DNA of 7,379 nucleotides from a virus. Its lineage: Duplodnaviria > Heunggongvirae > Uroviricota > Caudoviricetes. The DNA is taken from IMG/VR virus record IMGVR_UViG_3300028969_000089. One strand, written 5' to 3'. Numbering within the stretch: the stretch's first letter is position 1; each line of letters starts with the position of its first letter. The notes below the pieces were generated by a model, which was given only the letters and a program-made list of their open reading frames with translations, did not search any database and was not told where the DNA came from. The position numbers and the translations under genes are program-made. Shown here piece after piece: positions 1 through 7,379 of the stretch.

Positions 1-82
1 AAATGTGGCCTGGCTGCACTCTGAAGTCACCGCATGGATGGCCGGGCGCATTGCCGGACGCAAACGGGGGTACGACGCATGA
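1..82 (+). CDS. 3' end of Vis/AlpA-family small DNA-binding regulator (5' truncated by window edge)
   Basis: Aligns base-for-base with 6744..6825, the 3' end of the complete 88-aa ORF 6559..6825. Reading frame ends at stop TGA 80..82, encoding ...[26 protein letters not shown]. Confidence 0.6.
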
Positions 83-117
83 TGATGCCCGCTCTGCAAA
101 AACTCCCTTTTTCTGGC

Positions 118-147
118 TTGCCTTTTTCCGGCATTTGCGGATATAGT
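118..147 (+). promoter_or_regulatory. Sigma70-like promoter, candidate early promoter of the left operon (P4 PLE equivalent)
   Basis: TTGCCT (118..123), 18-nt spacer, TATAGT (142..147), directly downstream of the vis stop. Identical hexamers at 6861..6866 and 6885..6890 in copy B. Confidence 0.4.
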
Positions 148-210
148 TTTTCCGCTGTCGCAAAATCGGCAGCCGGGCGTGAGAACCCGAGCAATTCACA
201 GGCGACATAT

Positions 211-232
211 GACGCGCCACGCGTCTTTTTTT
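211..232 (+). terminator. Intrinsic terminator-like hairpin in the leader
   Basis: GACGCG (211..216), loop CCA, CGCGTC (220..225), then seven T (226..232). Copy B keeps a GACGC/GCGTC stem plus T7 at 6954..6975. Confidence 0.45.
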
Positions 233-390
233 GTGTCGCAATCAATGCCACAGAGCGCCAGATTATGGTGTGGTGTGTGGTCAGTCGTGCAGATGGCATT
301 CCGTGCATCCTGCCCGCGTCCGCTCATTATGCCGCAGAGTCAATGGTAGCTCAGGCGGGGCAGCCTCCGGGCTGGCCGGTATCCTGTGAA

Positions 391-452
391 GCCGGTATTC
401 TCACCCCCGTCTGGGCTATCGCCATCGAGCGTGAGAACTCCGGCGATAGCGT
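391..452 (+). ncRNA. Candidate CI-like immunity RNA core (62-nt block identical in both repeat copies)
   Basis: The 62 nt at 391..452 are identical to 7125..7186 while the 10 nt immediately upstream and the sequence downstream differ. Contains a 9-bp stem GCTATCGCC (415..423) / GGCGATAGC (442..450) with an 18-nt loop exposing GTGAGAAC (431..438), and an upstream TTCTCAC (398..404) complementary to GTGAGAA. Confidence 0.35.
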
Positions 453-480
453 TATTTGCTATTCACAGGAGGCTGCCATC

Positions 481-678
481 ATGGCTACAACCCTTACCCC
501 CTCACACCCTGAATTTGTCTTTGTGTTTGCGGCTGTCCGTCGCGCAGACCGTCATCCCCGTATCTGTATGCTTCGCACCGTCGCCGGTGATGAACGCAGT
601 GCCCGCCGTTCCCTTGTCCGTGACTATGTGCTCTCCCTTGCTGCCCGTCTGCCGGTGGTGGAGGTGTCCCGTGCGTAA
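481..678 (+). CDS. Small conserved protein (65 aa) downstream of the CI-like block; function unknown (Kil/Eps position of a P4-type left operon)
   Basis: ATG 481 preceded by AGGAGG (467..472) with an 8-nt spacer. Copy B (7215..7379) differs at only three positions across the 55 aligned codons, all synonymous third-base changes (ACA/ACG, CCC/CCT, TGT/TGC). Confidence 0.55.
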
Positions 679-958
679 TAAAAAAGCCCCTCAGACCGTC
701 TCAGCGCGTCATGACGCCCGTGAACACCTCAGCATTGAGGCTTATCATAAGCTCAACCGTGCCAGCGCCGTATCCCAGTTTGTTGGGGGTGATTTGATTC
801 ACCGTGAACTCTCCGGCCTGCATCAGCTCTACATTCCGCATATTTTCAGCTACCTGAATGAAGATATTGATTTTGTGCTGAATGAGCTGAAAGCCAAAGG
901 CCTGTGCCGCGATTTTCTCGCCCAGCAGAAAGACCGGGGAGACAGGACGCATGTTTGA
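671..958 (+). CDS. Hypothetical small protein (95 aa), probably translationally coupled to the preceding ORF
   Basis: GTG 671 overlaps the upstream stop (GTGCGTAA) and is preceded by GGAGG (660..664). No in-frame ATG. The long 190-aa frame 386..958 would have to run through the conserved RNA block, so the short form is preferred. Confidence 0.4.
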
Positions 959-1011
959 TTTTCCCCAGCTCCACCACTTGCTCTTCCGGATACGTCCGGA
1001 GAAATCCTAAA

Positions 1012-1160: not shown

Positions 1161-2372
1161 GTGGCAAGAACGACACGCCCCCTGACCAACACAGAAGTTC
1201 TGCGCGCTAAAGCGTTAGAAAAGGATCTAACGTTACATGATGGCGATGGCCTTTTTCTGCTCGTTAAAACGAACGGTAAGAAGTTGTGGCGTTTCCGTTA
1301 TCAACGTCCAGCAACAAAACAGCGGACAATGATGGGGCTTGGTGCTTTCCCCGCCCTTTCACTTGCTGATGCTCGAAGGTTAAGAGCGGATTACCTTGCT
1401 TTGTTGGCTAATGGTATAGACCCACAAGTTCAAGCTGAATTTATCGAAGAACAACAACAGATAGCTCTAGACAGTATTTTTTCGACTGTTGCGACCAACT
1501 GGTTCCAGATAAAAAGCAAAAGCGTTACCCCTGATTACGCTAAAGATATATGGCGCTCACTGGAAAAAGACGTATTCCCTGCCATCGGGGAGATTCCTGT
1601 CCAGCAAATAAAAGCCCGAACACTAGTTGAAGCCCTTGAGCCAATCAAAGCTCGTGGAGCACTCGAGACAGTGCGCCGACTTGTACAGCGCATTAACGAG
1701 ATAATGATTTATGCCGTAAACACTGGTCTGATTGATGCCAATCCAGCATCAGGTGTTGGGATGGCCTTTGAAAAGCCCAGAAAACAAAACATGCCGACGC
1801 TGAGGCCAGAAGAATTACCAAAGCTGATGCGTTCTTTGTTCATGTCAAATCTGTCTGTTCCGACTCGCTGTCTCATTGAATGGCAGCTTCTGACTCTAGT
1901 GCGTCCTGCTGAAGCTTCCGGTGCTCGATGGGCAGAGATCGATCTCGATGCAAAGCTCTGGATGATTCCAGCCGAACGGATGAAGGCCAAACGAGAGCAC
2001 ATAGTTCCTTTATCCACGCAGGCATTAGAAATTCTAGAAGTGATGCAACCTATTAGCGCACATCGTGAGCATGTTTTCCCAAGCAGAAATGACCCTAAAC
2101 AACCAATGAATAGCCAGACTGCGAATGCCGCGCTTAAGCGCATTGGTTATGGTGGGAAGCTTGTTGCTCATGGATTACGTTCTATAGCAAGTACAGCACT
2201 AAATGAAGCTGGTTTTAATCCGGACGTAATTGAAGCGGCACTTGCTCACAGTGATAAAAATGAAGTTCGAAGAGCATACAATCGTTCAACTTACCTTGAA
2301 CAACGTATAGACTTGATGAATTGGTGGGGTGAATTTGTGCACAACCGCCACCGCCTCATGCAAGCGATTTAA
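1161..2372 (+). CDS. int: P4-type tyrosine integrase (site-specific recombinase)
   Basis: 403-aa ORF starting GTG 1161 with AAGGAG at 1147..1152. N-terminal arm-binding-type sequence (LHDGDGLFLLVKTNGKKLWRFRYQ) and C-terminal catalytic signature HGLRSIAS ... RAYNRSTY typical of P4-family integrases. Confidence 0.9.
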   Translation: MARTTRPLTNTEVLRAKALEKDLTLHDGDGLFLLVKTNGKKLWRFRYQRPATKQRTMMGLGAFPALSLADARRLRADYLALLANGIDPQVQAEFIEEQQQIALDSIFSTVATNWFQIKSKSVTPDYAKDIWRSLEKDVFPAIGEIPVQQIKARTLVEALEPIKARGALETVRRLVQRINEIMIYAVNTGLIDANPASGVGMAFEKPRKQNMPTLRPEELPKLMRSLFMSNLSVPTRCLIEWQLLTLVRPAEASGARWAEIDLDAKLWMIPAERMKAKREHIVPLSTQALEILEVMQPISAHREHVFPSRNDPKQPMNSQTANAALKRIGYGGKLVAHGLRSIASTALNEAGFNPDVIEAALAHSDKNEVRRAYNRSTYLEQRIDLMNWWGEFVHNRHRLMQAI

Positions 2373-2399
2373 TAAGATTGCACAGCAAAGGAGTCTTAA

Positions 2400-3758
2400 A
2401 TGCCAAATAACTACCATCAATACATCGAAGACGTTAGTGATGATATAAAGACATGTCTTGAAGGAATGGGATGCCAACCCATACTTTTTGTTGGATCGGG
2501 ATTAACCAAGAGATATCTTTCTGGCCCAAACTGGGAAGAACTTCTTCAGCAACTTGCTAATGAATGTCCTAACATCGATAAAAGATTTGCCTATTATAAA
2601 CAGAAATACCCCGAGTTGATTGATATCGGCAGTGTATTTTCTGATTCTTATAACGAGTGGGCATGGGGTGATGGAGAGAAAGAATTTCCAGCAGAGTTAT
2701 TTGATGCAGGCAATGAGCCAAGTATTTATTTTAAATACAAAGTATCTAGTATTTTCAACTCATTGTTACAAGAAAAAGAAATCGTAAACAACGGTGAAAT
2801 TGAACTTCTGAGAAAGATTCACCCTCATTCAATCATCACAACAAATTACGACAAATTACTTGAATCGATATATCCTGAGTTTACCCCCATTATAGGCCAA
2901 AAAATCCTTTACGCTAATCACGGTAGCATTGGTGAAATACTTAAAATACATGGTTGCTGCTCCACTCCTGAAAGCATAATAATAAACCGCGATGACTACG
3001 ATGACTTCATAAAGAAGAAGAAATATTTAAGCGCAAAACTGCTTACTTTCTTTGCTGAACACCCTCTTCTATTTATAGGTTACAGCGCAGAAGACTCGAA
3101 CATAAAAAACATACTATCTGATATTGATGAACTACTTTCAGAAAATGGAGATGTCATTCCAAATATATACATTTTAGAATGGACGAGCAAACAAAATGAA
3201 AGTGAATACCCACGCCGTGAACGGCTGATTCAAGTATCTGCAAACAAAAGCATTAGAATAAAAAGTATAGTAGCAAATGACTTCTCTTGGGTATTTTCAG
3301 CGTTTGGCGCGAACAGAGCACTTGATAACATAAATCCCAAATTATTGAGGGCACTTTTAGCTCGCACTTACGATCTCGTCAGAACTGATATACCTCGCAA
3401 TCCTGTCCAAGTTGATTACCGAGTTTTATCAAGCATTAGCGAGTCAGAAGGTGAATTAGCGAAATTATATGGTATCGCCACATCGTCAGATGGTATGGCA
3501 TTTAATGCCAGTTATCCTTTTACTTTAACCACGCTAGGGCAATCACTTGGTTTCAAAGGCTGGCATGATGCGAACAAACTATTAGAAGTAGTTAAAAACA
3601 TCACGAACGTAGACATCAAGACATTCGATAACAAATACCACTATGCAATAATGAACGGTGATGAGATTCAGTCCCATAGATATTCAAACTATCTTCGAGA
3701 ACTCCTCGAAAAGGTTAGGGATGGAGAGGAGTTTGAGTTAGGAATAAAGGCTCCATAA
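2400..3758 (+). CDS. SIR2-like (SIR2_2-type) putative NAD+-hydrolase, candidate standalone antiphage defence protein with an uncharacterised C-terminal domain
   Basis: 452-aa ORF with AAGGAG at 2388..2393. Motifs read directly: ILFVGSGLTKRYLSGPNWEELL (Gly-rich NAD pocket), ITTNYD (Asn149, codon 2844..2846), KIHG (His184, codon 2949..2951), LFIGYSAED. Gene is markedly AT-rich against GC-rich flanks and starts 25 bp after the int stop. Confidence 0.8.
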   Translation: MPNNYHQYIEDVSDDIKTCLEGMGCQPILFVGSGLTKRYLSGPNWEELLQQLANECPNIDKRFAYYKQKYPELIDIGSVFSDSYNEWAWGDGEKEFPAELFDAGNEPSIYFKYKVSSIFNSLLQEKEIVNNGEIELLRKIHPHSIITTNYDKLLESIYPEFTPIIGQKILYANHGSIGEILKIHGCCSTPESIIINRDDYDDFIKKKKYLSAKLLTFFAEHPLLFIGYSAEDSNIKNILSDIDELLSENGDVIPNIYILEWTSKQNESEYPRRERLIQVSANKSIRIKSIVANDFSWVFSAFGANRALDNINPKLLRALLARTYDLVRTDIPRNPVQVDYRVLSSISESEGELAKLYGIATSSDGMAFNASYPFTLTTLGQSLGFKGWHDANKLLEVVKNITNVDIKTFDNKYHYAIMNGDEIQSHRYSNYLRELLEKVRDGEEFELGIKAP

Positions 3759-3787
3759 TTATTCATATAGCCTTACTACTTTTTATG

Positions 3788-3809
3788 GCCGCTTTAATAG
3801 CGGCTTTTT
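3788..3809 (+). terminator. Rho-independent terminator after the SIR2-like gene
   Basis: Stem GCCGCT (3788..3793) / AGCGGC (3799..3804), loop TTAAT, then TTTTT (3805..3809), 30 bp past the stop codon. Confidence 0.55.
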
Positions 3810-3945
3810 CACAGCATTATTCATGCTTCTAGCACGATATGATGAACCGCAATAATCATAGCTAACAGGATTAATTTAAAGCATTACTCCTCGACTGAAG
3901 CGTGCTGTCATGCGAAAAAAATTTAAACTACCACGTTAGCGCGCA

Positions 3946-3964
3946 GTGCTTTCCCCGCCTCGCC
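3946..3964. other. Candidate cos site (P2/P4-type 19-nt cohesive end)
   Basis: GTGCTTTCCCCGCCTCGCC is the exact reverse complement of GGCGAGGCGGGGAAAGCAC, which I recall as the P2/P4 cohesive-end sequence. It lies between the cargo gene and psu, as cos does in P4. Confidence 0.6.
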
Positions 3965-4066
3965 CGCCCGCTTTGCGGGGCGGTTTTAATGCAGTTGCAC
4001 TGACACGCTCAGACCGCGCCGGGAATGGTGCGGTCTGCAGAAAATGAGGCAGGAAAACGCATGCAA

Positions 4067-4098
4067 AGCCATGCACCTTATCGATGCATGGCTTTTTT
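4067..4098 (+). terminator. Hairpin plus T-tract in the cos-to-psu spacer (terminator-like)
   Basis: 9-bp stem AGCCATGCA (4067..4075) / TGCATGGCT (4085..4093), 9-nt loop, T-run to 4098. It is oriented to stop plus-strand read-through into antisense psu. Confidence 0.35.
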
Positions 4099-4128: not shown

Positions 4129-4701
4129 TTACACAGACTGACGTGATGCCAGTTGCGCACTTTTACGCGAAAAAATCATGTTCTGCGCAGGGGTGAATTT
4201 TTCACGGCTGTCATCCACCGAAGCCGCGTCAGGCCTGAATCCGATGGCCGTTAAAATGTCGCTATCCTGTGCGGAATAATTAATTTTTTCCCCCTTCGCA
4301 AGCCAGGACAGAAGGGCTTCACGCAGGGCATCTGTGGCACGCTGTATGGCACAGTTTCGGGCAATGACCGTCAGCTCACTGTAGCCCATCAGCTCCGGTG
4401 CCAGTGCCGCCGCCAGTGCTGTGCCGTGCTGCTGCATAAAATCATTCAGCCGGTCGCGGATGCTGATGTGCTGAACGGCTTCATGCGAACGAATATAACG
4501 ACCGGCGGCCTGATTCACCTGCCATTTTCTGACTTCGATAATATTGCGTAATTCGTCCAAGCGACTGACGTTTCTGCCTTCTCCTGACAGAAGCCGCAGA
4601 TATTCCTGTTCGGCCGCAGCCAGCTCATTTTTGCGTTGCAGCCATGCTGCTTTGTTATTCTGACAGGTGTCAAAGGCCTGCTGTAAGGCTGTGCTTTCCA
4701 T
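4129..4701 (-). CDS. psu: Polarity suppression protein Psu (P4 capsid decoration / Rho antagonist)
   Basis: 190-aa ORF whose sequence (MESTALQQAFDTCQNNKAAWLQRKNELAAAEQEY...) matches my recollection of P4 Psu in length and sequence. Last gene of the sid-delta-psu late operon. Confidence 0.85.
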   Translation of the reverse strand: MESTALQQAFDTCQNNKAAWLQRKNELAAAEQEYLRLLSGEGRNVSRLDELRNIIEVRKWQVNQAAGRYIRSHEAVQHISIRDRLNDFMQQHGTALAAALAPELMGYSELTVIARNCAIQRATDALREALLSWLAKGEKINYSAQDSDILTAIGFRPDAASVDDSREKFTPAQNMIFSRKSAQLASRQSV

Positions 4702-4774: not shown

Positions 4775-5275
4775 TCATTCCAGACGCAGCGAATATGATT
4801 GTGTTTTTAACCGTACTGGCGGCAGTTCCTGTTTTTCATGCAGGCGTTCTGCCAGTTCGTCCGGTGTGACCGGGCGGACAATGAAGCGGTTGATGGTCTG
4901 AAGCGTTTTAAACACCAGACCACATCCCGGATCCGTGCACACATAAAAACGCTCGGTGACTTCCTGAGACAGACGCCGCGATGTTCTTGACAGTGCAAGG
5001 CCTTTACATCTCCGACAACAATATCCGGTAACAAGCATTCTTTTCGGGCGTTTCATACTGCCGGAGGCTGACGTCAGTGAATCGCGGTATCTCTGTTTGC
5101 CTGAAATGTATTCCATTCCTGAATCTTTACAGTCAGAGAAAAAGCTTTCACTCGCTTCAAATGTCGCAGAGCAATAAATATTCCGGCACTGTGCAATCAT
5201 TATCTTGGTGCCATCGTCCATGAAATGTGCGCGACGGGTGTGAGCAACATGTCCACACGACGGGCAGTAAATCAT
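4775..5275 (-). CDS. delta: Delta, Ogr/Delta-family zinc-finger late transcription activator
   Basis: 166 aa, the length of P4 Delta. Two Ogr-like halves each with Cys pairs (CPSC...CRNIYC and CCRRC...CTDPGC). Start overlaps the sid stop in an ATGA junction at 5272..5275. Confidence 0.85.
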   Translation of the reverse strand: MIYCPSCGHVAHTRRAHFMDDGTKIMIAQCRNIYCSATFEASESFFSDCKDSGMEYISGKQRYRDSLTSASGSMKRPKRMLVTGYCCRRCKGLALSRTSRRLSQEVTERFYVCTDPGCGLVFKTLQTINRFIVRPVTPDELAERLHEKQELPPVRLKTQSYSLRLE

Positions 5276-6006
5276 GACAGCAGTCCTCTGGCCTTAAGCT
5301 CTGCTCCCTGCTGGTCTATTTTGTCCTGCCACACCTTGCGCTGTGCCGGTGTGCCTGCCACCTCATAATCCATGTGCGGGAGTGTTGCCGCTGACAGTCC
5401 GGTCAGCCGGAGAACCGGCTCGCCGGTGAGGCTGATTTGCATCTGTTTAATTTTCTGTTCCAGCGATGATTTCACCTGCTGCATGACAGCCTTTTCCGGT
5501 GCGACGTAGCCCTGATGGCCGGTGGTGTTGGCGAGCGGATTTTCCTGTACCAGGATACTCAGATGCATTGCCCGGACAAGCGCCTCACAGGTTTCATTTA
5601 GGGCGTGTTCCAGCTCATGCTCTGCATACAGACTCAGAAGGTGATGATGTGCCTTCCGGTAGGCGGTGGCCGTGCTGTCACACGCCCCTTTCAGGCGTTC
5701 ACGTTCGAAATTCAGCACCACGGCCAGATTGTCATATTCCTGTACCAGCTCCCGGCGTGCCACGCGCTCAATGTGGCGCTGTTTCAGCTCGTCGCTCAGG
5801 ACACCACCGGCTGCACGAAAGGCCGTGCGCCAGTCGTCAGCGTCGTTTCCGTCGGCCTGCGCCAGCGCATTTTTTTCCTGCTCTGCCCGTTCAATGGCCG
5901 TGATGGTCTCATCCATCAGGCGGGCGTTCTCAAGATGAGCGGCTCTGGCCTTTTCCAGTTGTGCCAGCGCGGGTTGCAGATATTCAGGGATGGTGTTGTC
6001 AGACAT
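5272..6006 (-). CDS. sid: Sid, external scaffold / capsid size determination protein
   Basis: The ORF track extends to 6072, but the ATG at 6004..6006 (MSDNTIPEYL...) has a GGAG 6 nt upstream and gives 244 aa, matching P4 Sid as I recall it. The upstream ATG would overlap the predicted promoter dyads. Confidence 0.8.
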   Translation of the reverse strand: MSDNTIPEYLQPALAQLEKARAAHLENARLMDETITAIERAEQEKNALAQADGNDADDWRTAFRAAGGVLSDELKQRHIERVARRELVQEYDNLAVVLNFERERLKGACDSTATAYRKAHHHLLSLYAEHELEHALNETCEALVRAMHLSILVQENPLANTTGHQGYVAPEKAVMQQVKSSLEQKIKQMQISLTGEPVLRLTGLSAATLPHMDYEVAGTPAQRKVWQDKIDQQGAELKARGLLS

Positions 6007-6040
6007 TTTCCGGCTCCTCGTCACTTCAGGTTGAGAAAAT

Positions 6041-6096
6041 TGTGACGTACACCGGACAACAACACGACGCATTGCAGATGTGCCAGCCCTGACACA
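6041..6096 (-). promoter_or_regulatory. Candidate Psid late promoter with two Ogr/Delta-type TGT-N12-ACA dyads
   Basis: Dyads TGT-N12-ACA at 6041..6058 and 6079..6096, centres 38 bp apart. If the distal dyad is at -55 the start site falls near 6032, about 26 nt upstream of the sid ATG, and the proximal dyad near -17. Confidence 0.5.
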
Positions 6097-6175
6097 GGAG
6101 ACTCATCCTCAGACCGGCAAGCCAGGAAAAGGTCGCAGGAAAAACCGGCTTACTGTTTGTTTTTTTATATTTTAC

Positions 6176-6279
6176 TGTTCACCTCTGTTCACCATAAGAA
6201 AAAAGATAAGTAATACAGTAAGTTAAATGGTGAACAATCGCAGTAATGACTGTTCACCGTCTGTTCACCACTGTTCACC
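6176..6279. repeat. Iteron array: six TGTTCACC octamers (ori/crr-like replication element)
   Basis: Octamers at 6176, 6186, 6251, 6262, 6272 (direct) and 6229..6236 (inverted). Adjacent direct copies are spaced 10 to 11 bp, with an AT-rich stretch between the clusters. TGTTCACC is the repeat I recall as the P4 alpha-protein binding site in ori and crr. Confidence 0.55.
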
Positions 6280-6382
6280 CGCTCATGGACTTTTTGTGCT
6301 GTTTACTACTGTTTGTTTTTATTAATTCGCCGGGAATGAATAAGAAGAAACGATTTGTATTTCACTATAAAAATTACGAATT

Positions 6383-6412
6383 GCTTTAAGTGGCTTTAAA
6401 TGACTTTAAGTG
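6383..6412. repeat. Three tandem 10-bp repeats upstream of vis
   Basis: GCTTTAAGTG (6383..6392), GCTTTAAATG (6393..6402), ACTTTAAGTG (6403..6412): head-to-tail and helically phased. Confidence 0.4.
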
Positions 6413-6438
6413 GGAATGAACAAAAAACACACAGTCAT

Positions 6439-6456
6439 TGTAAGGCGGCCGGAACA
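6439..6456 (+). promoter_or_regulatory. Candidate activator dyad for the rightward late promoter upstream of vis (PLL equivalent)
   Basis: TGT (6439..6441), 12 nt, ACA (6454..6456). Placing it at -55 puts the start site near 6502, about 57 nt upstream of the vis ATG. No convincing -10 hexamer was identified. Confidence 0.25.
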
Positions 6457-6558
6457 AATCCCCCCTGTTGCGTCTGCCAAAAAGATTCACAAAATAAAGC
6501 GCTACCCGAAGCCGGACGGACTTATCCGGTGCTGTATGGACATTAACGAGGTAGCCCG

Positions 6559-6825
6559 ATGCAAGCTGTTTTTTCTTCCCCGTCTCCCTCCCCTGTGACG
6601 CCACTGATGCCGCTGCCGGACATCACGCAGGAGCGTTTTTTACGTCTGCCGGAAGTGATGCACCTGTGCGGCCTGTCACGTTCGACCATCTATGAACTCA
6701 TCCGTAAGGGGGAATTTCCGCCGCAGGTGAGTCTTGGCGGTAAAAATGTGGCCTGGCTGCACTCTGAAGTCACCGCATGGATGGCCGGGCGCATTGCCGG
6801 ACGCAAACGGGGGTACGACGCATGA
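6559..6825 (+). CDS. vis: Vis/AlpA-family small DNA-binding regulator / excisionase-like protein
   Basis: 88-aa ORF with an AlpA-type helix-turn-helix core ([43 protein letters not shown]). Position between the late promoter region and the early promoter matches P4 vis as I recall it. Confidence 0.75.
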
Positions 6826-6860
6826 TGATGCCTGTTCTGCAAAAACTCCCTTTTTCTGGC

Positions 6861-6890
6861 TTGCCTTTTTCCGGCATTTGCGGATATAGT
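6861..6890 (+). promoter_or_regulatory. Sigma70-like promoter, copy B of the candidate early promoter
   Basis: TTGCCT (6861..6866), 18-nt spacer, TATAGT (6885..6890); identical to copy A. Confidence 0.4.
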
Positions 6891-6953
6891 TTTTCCGTTG
6901 CCGCAAAATCGGCAGCCGGGCGTGAGAACCCGAGTATGTTATCGGCGACATAT

Positions 6954-6975
6954 GACGCGCCATGCGTCTTTTTTT
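6954..6975 (+). terminator. Leader hairpin plus T7, copy B
   Basis: GACGC (6954..6958) / GCGTC (6964..6968) with a 5-nt loop, then seven T (6969..6975). Confidence 0.4.
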
Positions 6976-7124
6976 GTGTCGCAATCAACGCCACAGAGCA
7001 CCAGATTATGGTGTGGCGTGTGGTTTGCCGTGCAGGTATGATCCTGTTCGCAATCGCATGTTATGCCTCTGAGTCAATGGTAGCTCAGGCGGGGCAGCCT
7101 CCGGGCTGGCCGGTTTCCGATAAC

Positions 7125-7186
7125 GCCGGTATTCTCACCCCCGTCTGGGCTATCGCCATCGAGCGTGAGAACTCCGGCGATAGCGT
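7125..7186 (+). ncRNA. Candidate CI-like immunity RNA core, copy B
   Basis: 62 nt identical to 391..452, flanked by diverged sequence. Confidence 0.35.
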
Positions 7187-7214
7187 CATTTACGCTGTTA
7201 TCGGAGGTTGCCTT

Positions 7215-7379
7215 ATGGCTACGACCCTTACCCCTTCACACCCTGAATTTGTCTTTGTGTTTGCGGCTGTCCGTCGCGCAGACCGTCATCCCCGTATCTG
7301 CATGCTTCGCACCGTCGCCGGTGATGAACGCAGTGCCCGCCGTTCCCTTGTCCGTGACTATGTGCTCTCCCTTGCTGCC
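7215..7379 (+). CDS. Small conserved protein, copy B (3' truncated by window end)
   Basis: ATG 7215 preceded by GGAGG. The 55 codons visible differ from 481..645 only at three synonymous sites. Confidence 0.5.

What the first reader, a model, noticed from the sequence alone, without database searches (positions are those of the whole stretch)
2400..3758. Standalone SIR2-like gene in the satellite cargo slot: candidate undescribed antiphage system
The 452-aa protein has the defence-type SIR2 hallmarks in the right order and spacing: the Gly-rich loop ILFVGSGLT...NWEELL, ITTNYD with Asn149, K-I-H-G with His184 35 residues later, and LFIGYS. No partner gene exists in the window: no TIR protein (Thoeris), HerA helicase or Argonaute, and it is far shorter than DSR1/DSR2-type proteins as I recall them. 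It is bracketed by the integrase and cos/psu, where P4 itself carries gop/beta/cII, a position reported as a defence hotspot in P4-like satellites. The protein is therefore most likely a single-gene NAD+-depleting abortive-infection effector with its own sensor domain.
Basis: partly seen in the sequence, partly recalled or inferred. Interest (0 to 1): 0.85.

Follow-up and report, generated by a model that had tools for sequence, protein, structure and literature searches.

The report
Known SIR2 cargo of P4-like satellite
This is a real, standalone SIR2-type (predicted NAD+-destroying) gene in the defence hotspot of an E. coli P4-like satellite, but it is already catalogued, and this exact allele was cloned and tested in 2022 without showing phage protection.

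Summary
Window 2400-3758 (+) encodes a 452-aa protein with a defence-type SIR2 domain (Pfam SIR2_2, 95 bits). N149 and H184 are invariant and align to ThsA N112/H152 and DSR2 H171. The gene lies between the integrase and cos/psu of a P4-like satellite and has its own RBS and terminator. No partner gene is present in the window or conserved across 80 loci from 80 species.

"Undescribed" is wrong. The protein is 100% identical to WP_001133507.1, listed as a single-gene "SIR2_2" P4-hotspot cargo by Rousset et al. 2022. Their plasmid pFR88 carries this allele and sits among the tested but not validated systems. PADLOC-DB models the family as candidate PDC-S25 (E = 2e-84).

What remains open is function. 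The fold is closest to the NADases ThsA, KomC, DSR2 and FAM118B. The C-terminal third (a conserved linker plus a small winged-helix-like domain) is exclusive to this family: 215 representatives among 1.84 billion proteins. The 2022 negative may reflect poor expression, because the insert starts only 121 nt upstream of the ATG, inside int.

Verdict: an already-known candidate, most likely a self-contained NADase abortive-infection protein, still unproven. Interest is low to moderate.

The parts
1161..2372 (+). P4-type tyrosine integrase. It forms the left boundary of the satellite's variable hotspot and is the likely source of transcription into the SIR2 gene.
   Evidence: Pfam Arm-DNA-bind_3, Phage_int_M and Phage_integrase. 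RefSeq annotates an integrase next to ssrA in NZ_AP021894.
2388..2393 (+). Shine-Dalgarno sequence AAGGAG, 6 nt upstream of the ATG
   Evidence: Read directly from the sequence.
2400..3758 (+). SIR2-family gene encoding 452 aa, identical to WP_001133507.1 and to the gene cloned in pFR88
2472..3314 (+). SIR2 (NADase-type Rossmann) domain, aa ~25-305. It includes the G-rich loop (aa 28-36) and the predicted catalytic residues N149 (nt 2844-2846) and H184 (nt 2949-2951).
   Evidence: The AlphaFold2 model is confident over aa 1-305. Foldseek matches ThsA, KomC, DSR2 and FAM118B. HMM alignments map N149 and H184 to ThsA N112 and H152 and to DSR2 H171.
3324..3503 (+). Highly conserved Arg-rich linker, aa 309-368 (LRALLARTYxLVRxDIPRNP...), which AlphaFold2 cannot place (pLDDT below 50). 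It is a candidate oligomerisation or regulatory interface.
   Evidence: Mean column conservation is 0.71, as high as the SIR2 domain. Confidence is low in both models. This stretch is still covered by the PDC-S25 and PHROG 2695 profiles.
3504..3746 (+). Small family-specific C-terminal domain, aa ~369-449 (H-S-H-H-beta hairpin-H). It has a winged-helix-like topology and is the candidate sensor or regulatory module.
3787..3810 (+). Intrinsic terminator (GGCCGCU-UUAAU-AGCGGCU followed by UUUUU) that ends the SIR2 transcription unit
   Evidence: RNA fold gives -15.1 kcal/mol with z = -3.0 against shuffles. The sequence was read.
3940..4070 (.). Conserved cos-proximal region of P4-like satellites, forming the right boundary of the hotspot
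   Evidence: Window 3940-4070 is the reverse complement of the conserved psu-proximal sequence present in the P4 and P4-like inserts printed in Rousset Table S2.
4129..4701 (-). psu (polarity suppression / capsid decoration protein), a conserved satellite gene flanking the hotspot
   Evidence: Pfam Psu, 295 bits.

Best explanation
The gene is the single-gene cargo of the int-psu/cos variable hotspot of an E. coli P4-like satellite integrated at ssrA. It encodes a self-contained member of the defence (NADase) branch of the SIR2 superfamily, in the family PADLOC calls PDC-S25.

Shown: a SIR2 NADase-type fold; invariant catalytic-type Asn and His; no partner gene; residence in mobile elements and defence islands across bacteria and archaea; strong purifying selection over the full length.

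Inferred: the protein is held inactive until a phage-derived cue is sensed through its family-specific C-terminal third (conserved linker plus small winged-helix-like domain). It then switches on, probably by oligomerising or forming filaments as ThsA, KomC, Avs5 and FAM118B do. It would then hydrolyse NAD+ and abort the infection.

Not shown: any anti-phage phenotype. The only published test of this allele found none.
For: SIR2_2 scores 95 bits. PADLOC PDC-S25 matches at E = 2e-84, and the next-best hits are the SIR2 parts of ThsA, LmuA, Dsr1 and Dsr2. The top Foldseek PDB matches are all NADases: BcThsA 8bto at 6e-10, KomC 9v0g, SeThsA 7uxt, DSR2 and the FAM118B filament 9r0p. N149 and H184 are invariant and align to ThsA N112 and H152; in the DSR2(H171A) chain the column under H184 reads Ala. 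There are no CxxC motifs, so the zinc ribbon of sirtuin deacylases is absent.

Standalone status: no neighbour family occurs in more than 8 of 80 loci from 80 species, and no Pfam family is shared by more than 5 of 142 nearest neighbours. The gene has its own RBS and terminator.

Defence and mobile-element context: the P4 hotspot, a Pf-type prophage, an integrative element and an Eco57I/Mrr island. Neighbours include type I and IIG restriction enzymes, DruE, dGTPase, ShosA, MADS genes, NADAR/DarT1 and other PDCs.

The whole length is conserved, including the C-terminal third, and that module is found only in this architecture. A different or related standalone ~440-aa Sir2, 'sole-Sir2', is an NADase in vitro, and a homolog protects against T2 and T4. 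This shows that single-protein Sir2 defence of this size exists.
Confidence: 0.6

Rival explanations
1. The gene is not a defence gene but a satellite- or host-manipulating enzyme. In this reading it is a SIR2-type ADP-ribosyltransferase or deacylase, or an NAD-consuming regulator. It would modify a host or helper-phage target to favour satellite maintenance, induction or packaging, perhaps directed by the winged-helix-like C-terminal domain.
For: No anti-phage phenotype was seen for this allele against 8 coliphages plus P2-like helpers. The C-terminal domain resembles Xis, AlpA, MerR and small-terminase DNA-binding folds that are typical of mobile-element regulators. The gene appears to be co-transcribed with int.
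Against: Homologs occur in many unrelated mobile elements and chromosomal islands in bacteria and archaea that share no satellite biology. The nearest structural relatives are all NADases, not transferases or deacylases. There is no Zn-ribbon. The hotspot is swapped among satellites like other defence cargo. The C-terminal domain is not basic.
Confidence: 0.14
2. The protein is an orphan effector that needs a signal made in trans. Like ThsA or KomC, it would be switched on by a small-molecule messenger produced by a TIR protein or other synthase encoded elsewhere in the genome. Alone in MG1655 it would therefore be inert.
For: The closest solved relatives, ThsA and KomC, are both ligand-activated, filament-forming NADases. 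The C-terminal invariant residues are polar or aromatic (W388, H389, K407, D410, N411, Y413, H414, Y428, S429), which fits a pocket better than a DNA-binding surface. The test in a heterologous host was negative.
Against: No SLOG/STALD or Macro domain is present: the PADLOC ThsA hits cover only profile positions 81-217, and Pfam finds nothing in the C-terminal part. No TIR or other partner is conserved near the gene in 80 species. Spread as single-gene cargo on satellites and prophages argues that the gene works on its own.
Confidence: 0.08
3. The gene is a selfish or decaying passenger. It would be a toxic NADase retained as an addiction-like module, or a gene with no current function in E. 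coli.
For: It is very rare in E. coli (7 of 5,426 genomes), its copies are nearly clonal (at least 99.5% identical), and one copy is disrupted by an IS. No phenotype was reported.
Against: The family is conserved over its full length from 43 to 96% identity across phyla, with uniform length and invariant catalytic and C-terminal residues. This indicates selection for function. No antitoxin-like partner is present.
Confidence: 0.08

Closest known systems
Rousset et al. 2022 P4-hotspot single-gene 'SIR2' system (plasmid pFR88, E. coli M605; WP_001133507)
   Same: It is the identical gene: 452/452 aa and 1359/1359 nt match WP_001133507.1, and 399/399 nt of the printed pFR88 insert match the window. 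The position, between int and cos/psu of a P4-like satellite, is also the same.
   Different: There is no difference in the gene itself. The window's left flank differs from every complete E. coli genome, because a partial second satellite copy is joined to the att site.
PADLOC phage-defence candidate PDC-S25 (single-gene; untested candidate class)
   Same: There is a strong HMM match (PDLC04968, E = 2.1e-84) over aa 12-376, covering the SIR2 domain plus the conserved linker. Both are single-gene. PHROG 2695, of unknown function, matches similarly.
   Different: Only positions 10-358 of the 517-position profile are matched. The last ~80 aa here form a different, family-exclusive C-terminal domain. 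PDC systems have no experimental validation.
Thoeris type I effector ThsA (SIR2-SLOG NADase)
   Same: ThsA is the best structural match for the SIR2 domain (8bto, 7uxt, 6lhx). The catalytic Asn and His are conserved (N112/H152 correspond to N149/H184), and the overall size is similar at ~470 aa.
   Different: This protein has no SLOG/STALD ligand-binding domain and no ThsB/TIR partner.
DSR2 / DSR1 (defence-associated sirtuins; single-protein NADases that sense phage proteins)
   Same: Both follow single-protein logic, with an N-terminal SIR2 NADase followed by a sensor region. The catalytic His aligns with DSR2 H171.
   Different: DSR1 and DSR2 are ~1000-1200 aa with large helical or HEAT-like sensor domains. 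NCBIfam Dsr2 scores 14.6 bits against a 1400-bit cut-off, and the PADLOC Dsr1 and Dsr2 hits are marginal and confined to the SIR2 core.
KomC (Kongming) and human FAM118B: small SIR2 NADases activated by filament formation
   Same: The SIR2 core fold is comparable (Foldseek 1e-9 to 3e-7), and these solved structures are helical filaments. This suggests an oligomerisation-based on-switch.
   Different: KomC is 264-278 aa and depends on KomA/KomB and a dITP signal. FAM118B is vertebrate. Neither has this C-terminal module.
'sole-Sir2' (CRISPR-supervised immune systems preprint, bioRxiv 10.1101/2024.12.27.630466)
   Same: It is a standalone Sir2 protein of ~440 aa. It has NADase activity in vitro, and a homolog protects E. 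coli against T2 and T4.
   Different: It is described as having a C-terminal Sir2 domain and an unrelated N-terminal part, which is the opposite order. No sequence or accession is available in the held text, so identity with this family could not be tested.

Membership tests
SIR2 superfamily, SIR2_2 (PF13289) defence-type branch | Profile match above the curated cut-off | tested here: met
   95.4 bits against a 24.5-bit cut-off, aa 144-266.
SIR2 superfamily, SIR2_2 (PF13289) defence-type branch | Conserved catalytic Asn and His and the Gly-rich NAD loop | tested here: met
   G32, G34, N149, D151 and H184 are invariant in 26 sequences. They align to ThsA N112 and H152 and to DSR2 H171.
SIR2 superfamily, SIR2_2 (PF13289) defence-type branch | NAD+ hydrolase activity | not testable with these tools
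   This needs an enzyme assay. No published assay was found for this family.
PADLOC PDC-S25 | Match to the PDC-S25 HMM as a single-gene system | tested here: met
   PDLC04968 matches at E = 2.1e-84 and PDLC04967 at E = 2.1e-33. There is no conserved neighbour.
PADLOC PDC-S25 | Full-length agreement with the profile | tested here: not met
   Only profile positions 10-358 of 517 align, and the C-terminal domain differs.
P4-like satellite hotspot cargo (Rousset 2022) | Located between int and psu, adjacent to cos, in a P4-like element, with alternative cargo in sister elements | tested here: met
   The gene order is ssrA-int-SIR2-psu-delta-sid-alpA-icd...alpha in NZ_AP021894. Sister satellites carry other genes at the same site. 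The accession is listed in Rousset Table S1A.
Validated anti-phage defence system | Experimental protection against at least one phage | tested here: not met
   This rests on a literature check, not a computation. pFR88 is in Table S2B ('additional tested systems') and is absent from the validated list in S2A. Caveat: the insert begins 121 nt upstream of the ATG and contains only a 7/12 promoter-like match.
Thoeris (ThsA/ThsB) | SLOG/STALD (or Macro) signal-binding domain fused to SIR2 | tested here: not met
   ThsA HMM hits cover only the SIR2 part (profile positions 81-217 of 478). There is no Pfam hit in aa 300-452 even at E = 10.
Thoeris (ThsA/ThsB) | Adjacent TIR-domain ThsB gene | tested here: not met
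   None is present in the window, and none is conserved across 80 loci.
DSR1 / DSR2 | A ~1000-1200-aa protein matching the equivalog model | tested here: not met
   NCBIfam NF041819 Dsr2 scores 14.6 bits against a 1400-bit cut-off. PADLOC gives Dsr1 1e-5 and Dsr2 2e-3 over ~115 aa only. The protein is 452 aa.
SIR2-HerA (Nezha), SPARSA (SIR2-APAZ/pAgo), Avs5 (SIR2-STAND), Lamassu LmuA-SIR2 | An obligatory partner or fused domain: HerA, short pAgo, STAND NTPase, or LmuB/LmuC SMC | tested here: not met
   No such gene or domain is in the window. None recurs next to homologs.
Canonical sirtuin protein deacylases (Pfam SIR2, PF02146) | PF02146 match and a Cys4 zinc-ribbon module | tested here: not met
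   Only PF13289 is hit. There are no CxxC motifs: the Cys residues are at 19, 25, 56, 186 and 187. The structural neighbours are NADases.
sole-Sir2 (CRISIS preprint) | Sequence homology to the published sole-Sir2 proteins, or location inside type I-C cas operons | not testable with these tools
   No sequences or accessions are held. The domain order described differs.

The most novel reading that the evidence does not exclude
The family is a genuine one-protein abortive-infection system. In this reading its family-exclusive C-terminal third (an Arg-rich conserved linker plus a small acidic-to-neutral winged-helix-like domain) is a previously uncharacterised phage sensor that switches a ThsA/KomC-like SIR2 NADase on by oligomerisation. 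The 2022 negative result would then be an artefact of weak expression (promoter left behind in int) or of a narrow phage panel.
Probability: 0.45. Interest if true: 0.5.

Novelty: already known. Interest (0 to 1): 0.28.

Why it matters
SIR2 NADases are a recurrent effector of bacterial immunity and have eukaryotic relatives such as FAM118. Each new sensor-effector pairing shows how infection is recognised. If this compact 452-aa protein is functional, it would be one of the smallest self-contained SIR2 defence proteins, and its sensor module is found nowhere else.

The locus, the gene and the candidate status are already in the literature and in PADLOC, and the only experiment so far was negative. 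The finding therefore does not open a new question. It re-identifies a known, unvalidated candidate. The one practically useful addition is that the published construct probably lacked the native promoter, so the negative result should not be taken as final.

Tried and rejected
1. A partner gene in the window. ORFs of at least 20 aa between the SIR2 stop codon and psu are only short frames overlapping the cos region. An Rfam scan finds no RNA there. Rejected.

2. A conserved partner elsewhere. All-vs-all clustering of about 2,000 flanking ORFs from 80 loci gave a maximum of 8 of 80 loci, and that cluster is the integrases of related satellites. Pfam and PADLOC scans of the 142 nearest neighbours gave a maximum of 5 of 142. 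Rejected.

3. ThsA membership. No SLOG domain and no TIR neighbour. Rejected.

4. DSR1 or DSR2 membership. Rejected on length and model scores.

5. A sirtuin deacylase. No PF02146 match and no Zn-ribbon. Rejected.

6. The C-terminal module as a shuffled sensor shared with other effectors. A profile search of 1.84 billion representatives found 215 hits, all with the same architecture or fragments of it. Rejected.

8. Sequence-level annotation of the C-terminal part. Pfam at E = 10 and a PDB profile search gave nothing meaningful.

9. Equating the family with 'sole-Sir2'. No sequences are available.

10. An AFDB50 fold search. The library was not available.

11. Later validation in the DefensePredictor, guilt-by-embedding, E. 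coli defence-island and human-SIR2 papers. None mentions this family.
Full report
**1. Observation**

An AAGGAG ribosome-binding site lies 6 nt upstream of the ATG, and only 28 nt separate the gene from the integrase stop codon. An intrinsic terminator follows at 3787-3810: a 7-bp GC-rich stem plus U5, -15.1 kcal/mol, z = -3.0.

Pfam SIR2_2 (PF13289) scores 95.4 bits against a cut-off of 24.5. About 40 further positions are also invariant, many of them in the C-terminal third. GC content falls to 35-40% across the gene against 45-58% in the flanks.

The neighbours are a P4-type integrase (1161-2372, +), psu (4129-4701, -), ogr/delta (4775-5275, -), a sid-like gene (5272-6072, -) and an AlpA-type HTH gene (6559-6825, +).

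**2. Context**

The window is an E. coli P4-like satellite. In NZ_AP021894 the gene order is ssrA (tmRNA), int, SIR2, psu, delta, sid, alpA, icd-like, then the alpha primase-helicase. Sister satellites at the same ssrA site are about 95% identical in the backbone but carry unrelated genes between int and psu. This is the behaviour of the int-psu/cos hotspot described by Rousset et al. 2022.

The gene occurs in 7 of 5,426 complete E. coli genomes. All copies are chromosomal and at least 99.5% identical, and one is interrupted by an IS5-family element.

**3. It is already described and was already tested**

- The window's protein is 452/452 aa and 1359/1359 nt identical to WP_001133507.1.
- That accession appears at least 21 times, as a one-gene 'SIR2_2' arrangement, in the stored part of Rousset's Table S1A.
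- Their plasmid pFR88 is listed as 'SIR2; P4; 1 gene; E. coli M605; GCA_000176555'. The 399 nt of its insert printed in the paper match window 2279-2677 at 399/399, and the listed protein is the same sequence.
[quoted passage not shown] The paper states that validated systems are in S2A and the other tested ones in S2B.
- Nineteen P4 constructs were challenged with eight coliphages in MG1655, and seven protected. Of the 18 P4-encoded systems re-tested in E. coli C against P2 and four P2-like phages, only TIR-NLR protected.
- PADLOC-DB models the family as phage-defence candidate PDC-S25, with E = 2.1e-84 over aa 12-376. PDC systems are 145 explicitly untested candidates derived by guilt-by-embedding.
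- The Domainator survey lists a one-gene 'Sir2-like (likely a NADase)' P4-hotspot cluster equated with Rousset's system 9.

So 'undescribed' does not hold.

**4. What the protein is**

*SIR2 domain (aa ~25-305).* AlphaFold2 with the 26-sequence alignment gives a mean pLDDT of 76, and aa 1-305 are confident. The best Foldseek PDB matches are all NAD+-hydrolysing SIR2 proteins:
- BcThsA 8bto, E = 6e-10
- KomC in the KomBC filament, 9v0g
- SeThsA 7uxt
- DSR2
- the human FAM118B filament

Sequence searches of the PDB return the same set. In the HMM alignments N149 and H184 fall on ThsA N112 and H152, counted in 6lhx. H184 falls on DSR2 H171, and in the deposited H171A chain that column reads Ala. 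There are no CxxC motifs and no PF02146 hit, so the protein is not a zinc-ribbon sirtuin deacylase.

*Linker (aa 309-368).* This stretch is as conserved as the catalytic domain, with a mean column conservation of 0.71. AlphaFold2 nevertheless models it at pLDDT below 50 in both runs. That pattern fits a segment that becomes ordered only in an oligomer or a complex. This is an inference.

Foldseek finds nothing significant. The domain is acidic to neutral, with pI 5.5 here and a family median of 7.1. I therefore treat 'winged-helix-like' as topology only, not as evidence of DNA binding. Pfam and PDB profile searches of this region are empty.

A profile of aa 296-452, searched against 1.84 billion representative proteins, finds only 215 hits. 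Every full-length hit has the module at about residues 300-455 of a 440-500-aa protein, and the rest are fragments. The module is therefore exclusive to this family and is not a shuffled sensor. The PDC-S25 profile (517 positions) and the PHROG 2695 profile (531 positions) align only up to aa ~346-376. This family is thus a sub-branch with its own C-terminus. Distant N-terminal relatives at about 30% identity occur in temperate phages of Bacillus, Streptococcus, Lactococcus and Mycolicibacterium.

**5. Is it really standalone?**

Within the window, nothing credible is encoded between the stop codon and psu, and no Rfam family lies there.

Across 80 loci from 80 species (Enterobacterales, Pseudomonas, Vibrio, alpha- and beta-proteobacteria, Bacillota, cyanobacteria, Planctomycetes and methanogenic archaea), I clustered about 2,000 flanking ORFs within 4 kb. 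The most widespread neighbour cluster is present in 8 of 80 loci, and it is the integrase of related enterobacterial satellites.

Among the 142 nearest neighbours, no Pfam family is shared by more than 5. These neighbours are enriched in two kinds of genes:
- Mobile-element genes: integrases and rve transposases.
- Defence genes: type I and type IIG restriction enzymes, DruE-like helicases, dGTPase, ShosA, MADS mad2/3/8, NADAR/DarT1, Schlafen-AlbA2 and PDC-S13/14/15.

Individual look-ups show three different settings:
- a Cohnella integrative element;
- a Thioalkalivibrio island next to an Eco57I-type enzyme and Mrr;
- the accessory end of a P. aeruginosa Pf-type filamentous prophage.

The gene is therefore a self-sufficient cargo that travels among mobile elements and defence islands.

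**6. Mechanism**

Most likely (confidence about 0.6) this is a one-protein NADase abortive-infection module. Its SIR2 domain would be kept off until the C-terminal third perceives an infection cue. Activation would probably involve oligomerisation or filament formation, as in ThsA, KomC, Avs5 and FAM118B.

- Shown: the fold, the catalytic residues, standalone status, defence and mobile-element context, and full-length purifying selection.
- Inferred: NADase activity, the trigger, the role of the C-terminal third, and abortive infection.

A preprint shows that a standalone ~440-aa 'sole-Sir2' hydrolyses NAD+ in vitro and that a homolog protects against T2 and T4. It is described with the opposite domain order, and no sequences are held, so I cannot say whether it is the same family.

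**7. Caveat on the published negative**

The pFR88 insert begins at window 2279, inside int and 121 nt upstream of the ATG. The best sigma-70-like match in that stretch is 7/12 (TTCAAC-17-TAGACT). The standard scan finds no promoter-like site on the + strand between 2100 and 2400. With only 28 nt and no terminator after int, the gene is plausibly co-transcribed with int, so the construct may have been poorly expressed. In the same paper PARIS-1 was silent from its native promoter and active only from Ptet. The negative result therefore lowers the defence hypothesis but does not eliminate it.

**8. Rivals**

- A satellite- or host-manipulating enzyme rather than a defence gene (0.14).
- An orphan effector needing a messenger made in trans (0.08).
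- A selfish or decaying passenger (0.08).

The evidence for and against each is given in the structured fields.

**9. Novelty and score**

The gene, its location, its candidate status and even an experimental test are all in the literature and in PADLOC-DB, so I rate it 'already known'. The residual interest lies in the uncharacterised, family-exclusive C-terminal module and in the possibility that the 2022 negative was an expression artefact. Interest is 0.28.

**10. Side observations**

The left end of the window is odd. Window 1-969 is 97.6% identical to the alpA-icd-hyp segment of a satellite. At 965-969 it is joined to the ssrA-3'/att sequence that precedes int. Positions 1-645 and 6744-7379 are 89-98% identical direct copies, and each carries the isrK and C4 immunity RNAs. 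No complete E. coli genome contains this junction. It may be a tandem or degenerate satellite, a recombinant, or an assembly chimera. This remains unresolved.

Noticed in passing
window 1-969 versus 6744-7379; junction at 965-969: The left end of the window is a diverged second copy (89-98% identical) of the satellite's alpA-3'/icd-like/hyp region, joined head-to-tail to the ssrA-3'/att sequence in front of int. A junction-spanning query (700-1250) has no place covering at least 80% in 5,426 complete E. coli genomes. It could be a tandem or degenerate satellite, a recombinant, or an assembly chimera.
   Followed up: partly
window 154-231, 339-426, 6884-6936, 6897-6974, 7073-7160 (+): Rfam finds isrK and C4 antisense RNA (the P4 immunity RNA) twice each, plus one c4-a1b1 target. 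The duplicated ends therefore each carry a P4-type immunity region.
   Followed up: no
window 2279-2400 (upstream part of the published pFR88 insert): The published 'native promoter' clone of this gene includes only 121 nt upstream of the ATG, all of it inside int. The best sigma-70-like match there is 7/12. The gene is probably co-transcribed with int, so the published negative phenotype may be an expression artefact.
   Followed up: partly
NZ_CM149565.1 1180502-1183060 (E. coli MEI4BO-21): In one of the seven E. coli genomes that carry the gene, it is split by an IS5-like ISKpn26 insertion.
   Followed up: no
L007-L009 (P. aeruginosa), gene at 6001-7353, next ORF at 7387-8157: A 73%-identical homolog sits at the accessory end of a Pf-type filamentous prophage (Zot, DUF2523). 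A 256-aa ORF with no Pfam hit follows 34 nt later. That ORF is not conserved next to homologs in other species.
   Followed up: partly
L030, L039, L040, L050, L056, L059 (Bacillaceae and one Methylomicrobium): A subset of loci shares a block of upstream same-strand genes (about 1031-1035, 244, 215 and 242 aa). PADLOC mad2/mad3/mad8 (MADS) models hit neighbours in the 80-locus neighbour set. This suggests the SIR2 gene is adjacent to or embedded in MADS-type islands there.
   Followed up: partly
L003, L019, L020 (Cohnella and Paenibacillus): The homolog is preceded on the same strand by a 762-aa gene and a 333-aa gene without Pfam hits, with an integrase beyond them. This may be a lineage-specific three-gene cassette.
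   Followed up: no
window 5272-6072 (-): The sid-like gene has no Pfam hit. RefSeq calls it 'glycoprotein 3' or 'capsid size-determining scaffold Sid', while PHROG 6165 labels it 'polarity suppression Psu-like'. The public annotations are inconsistent.
   Followed up: no
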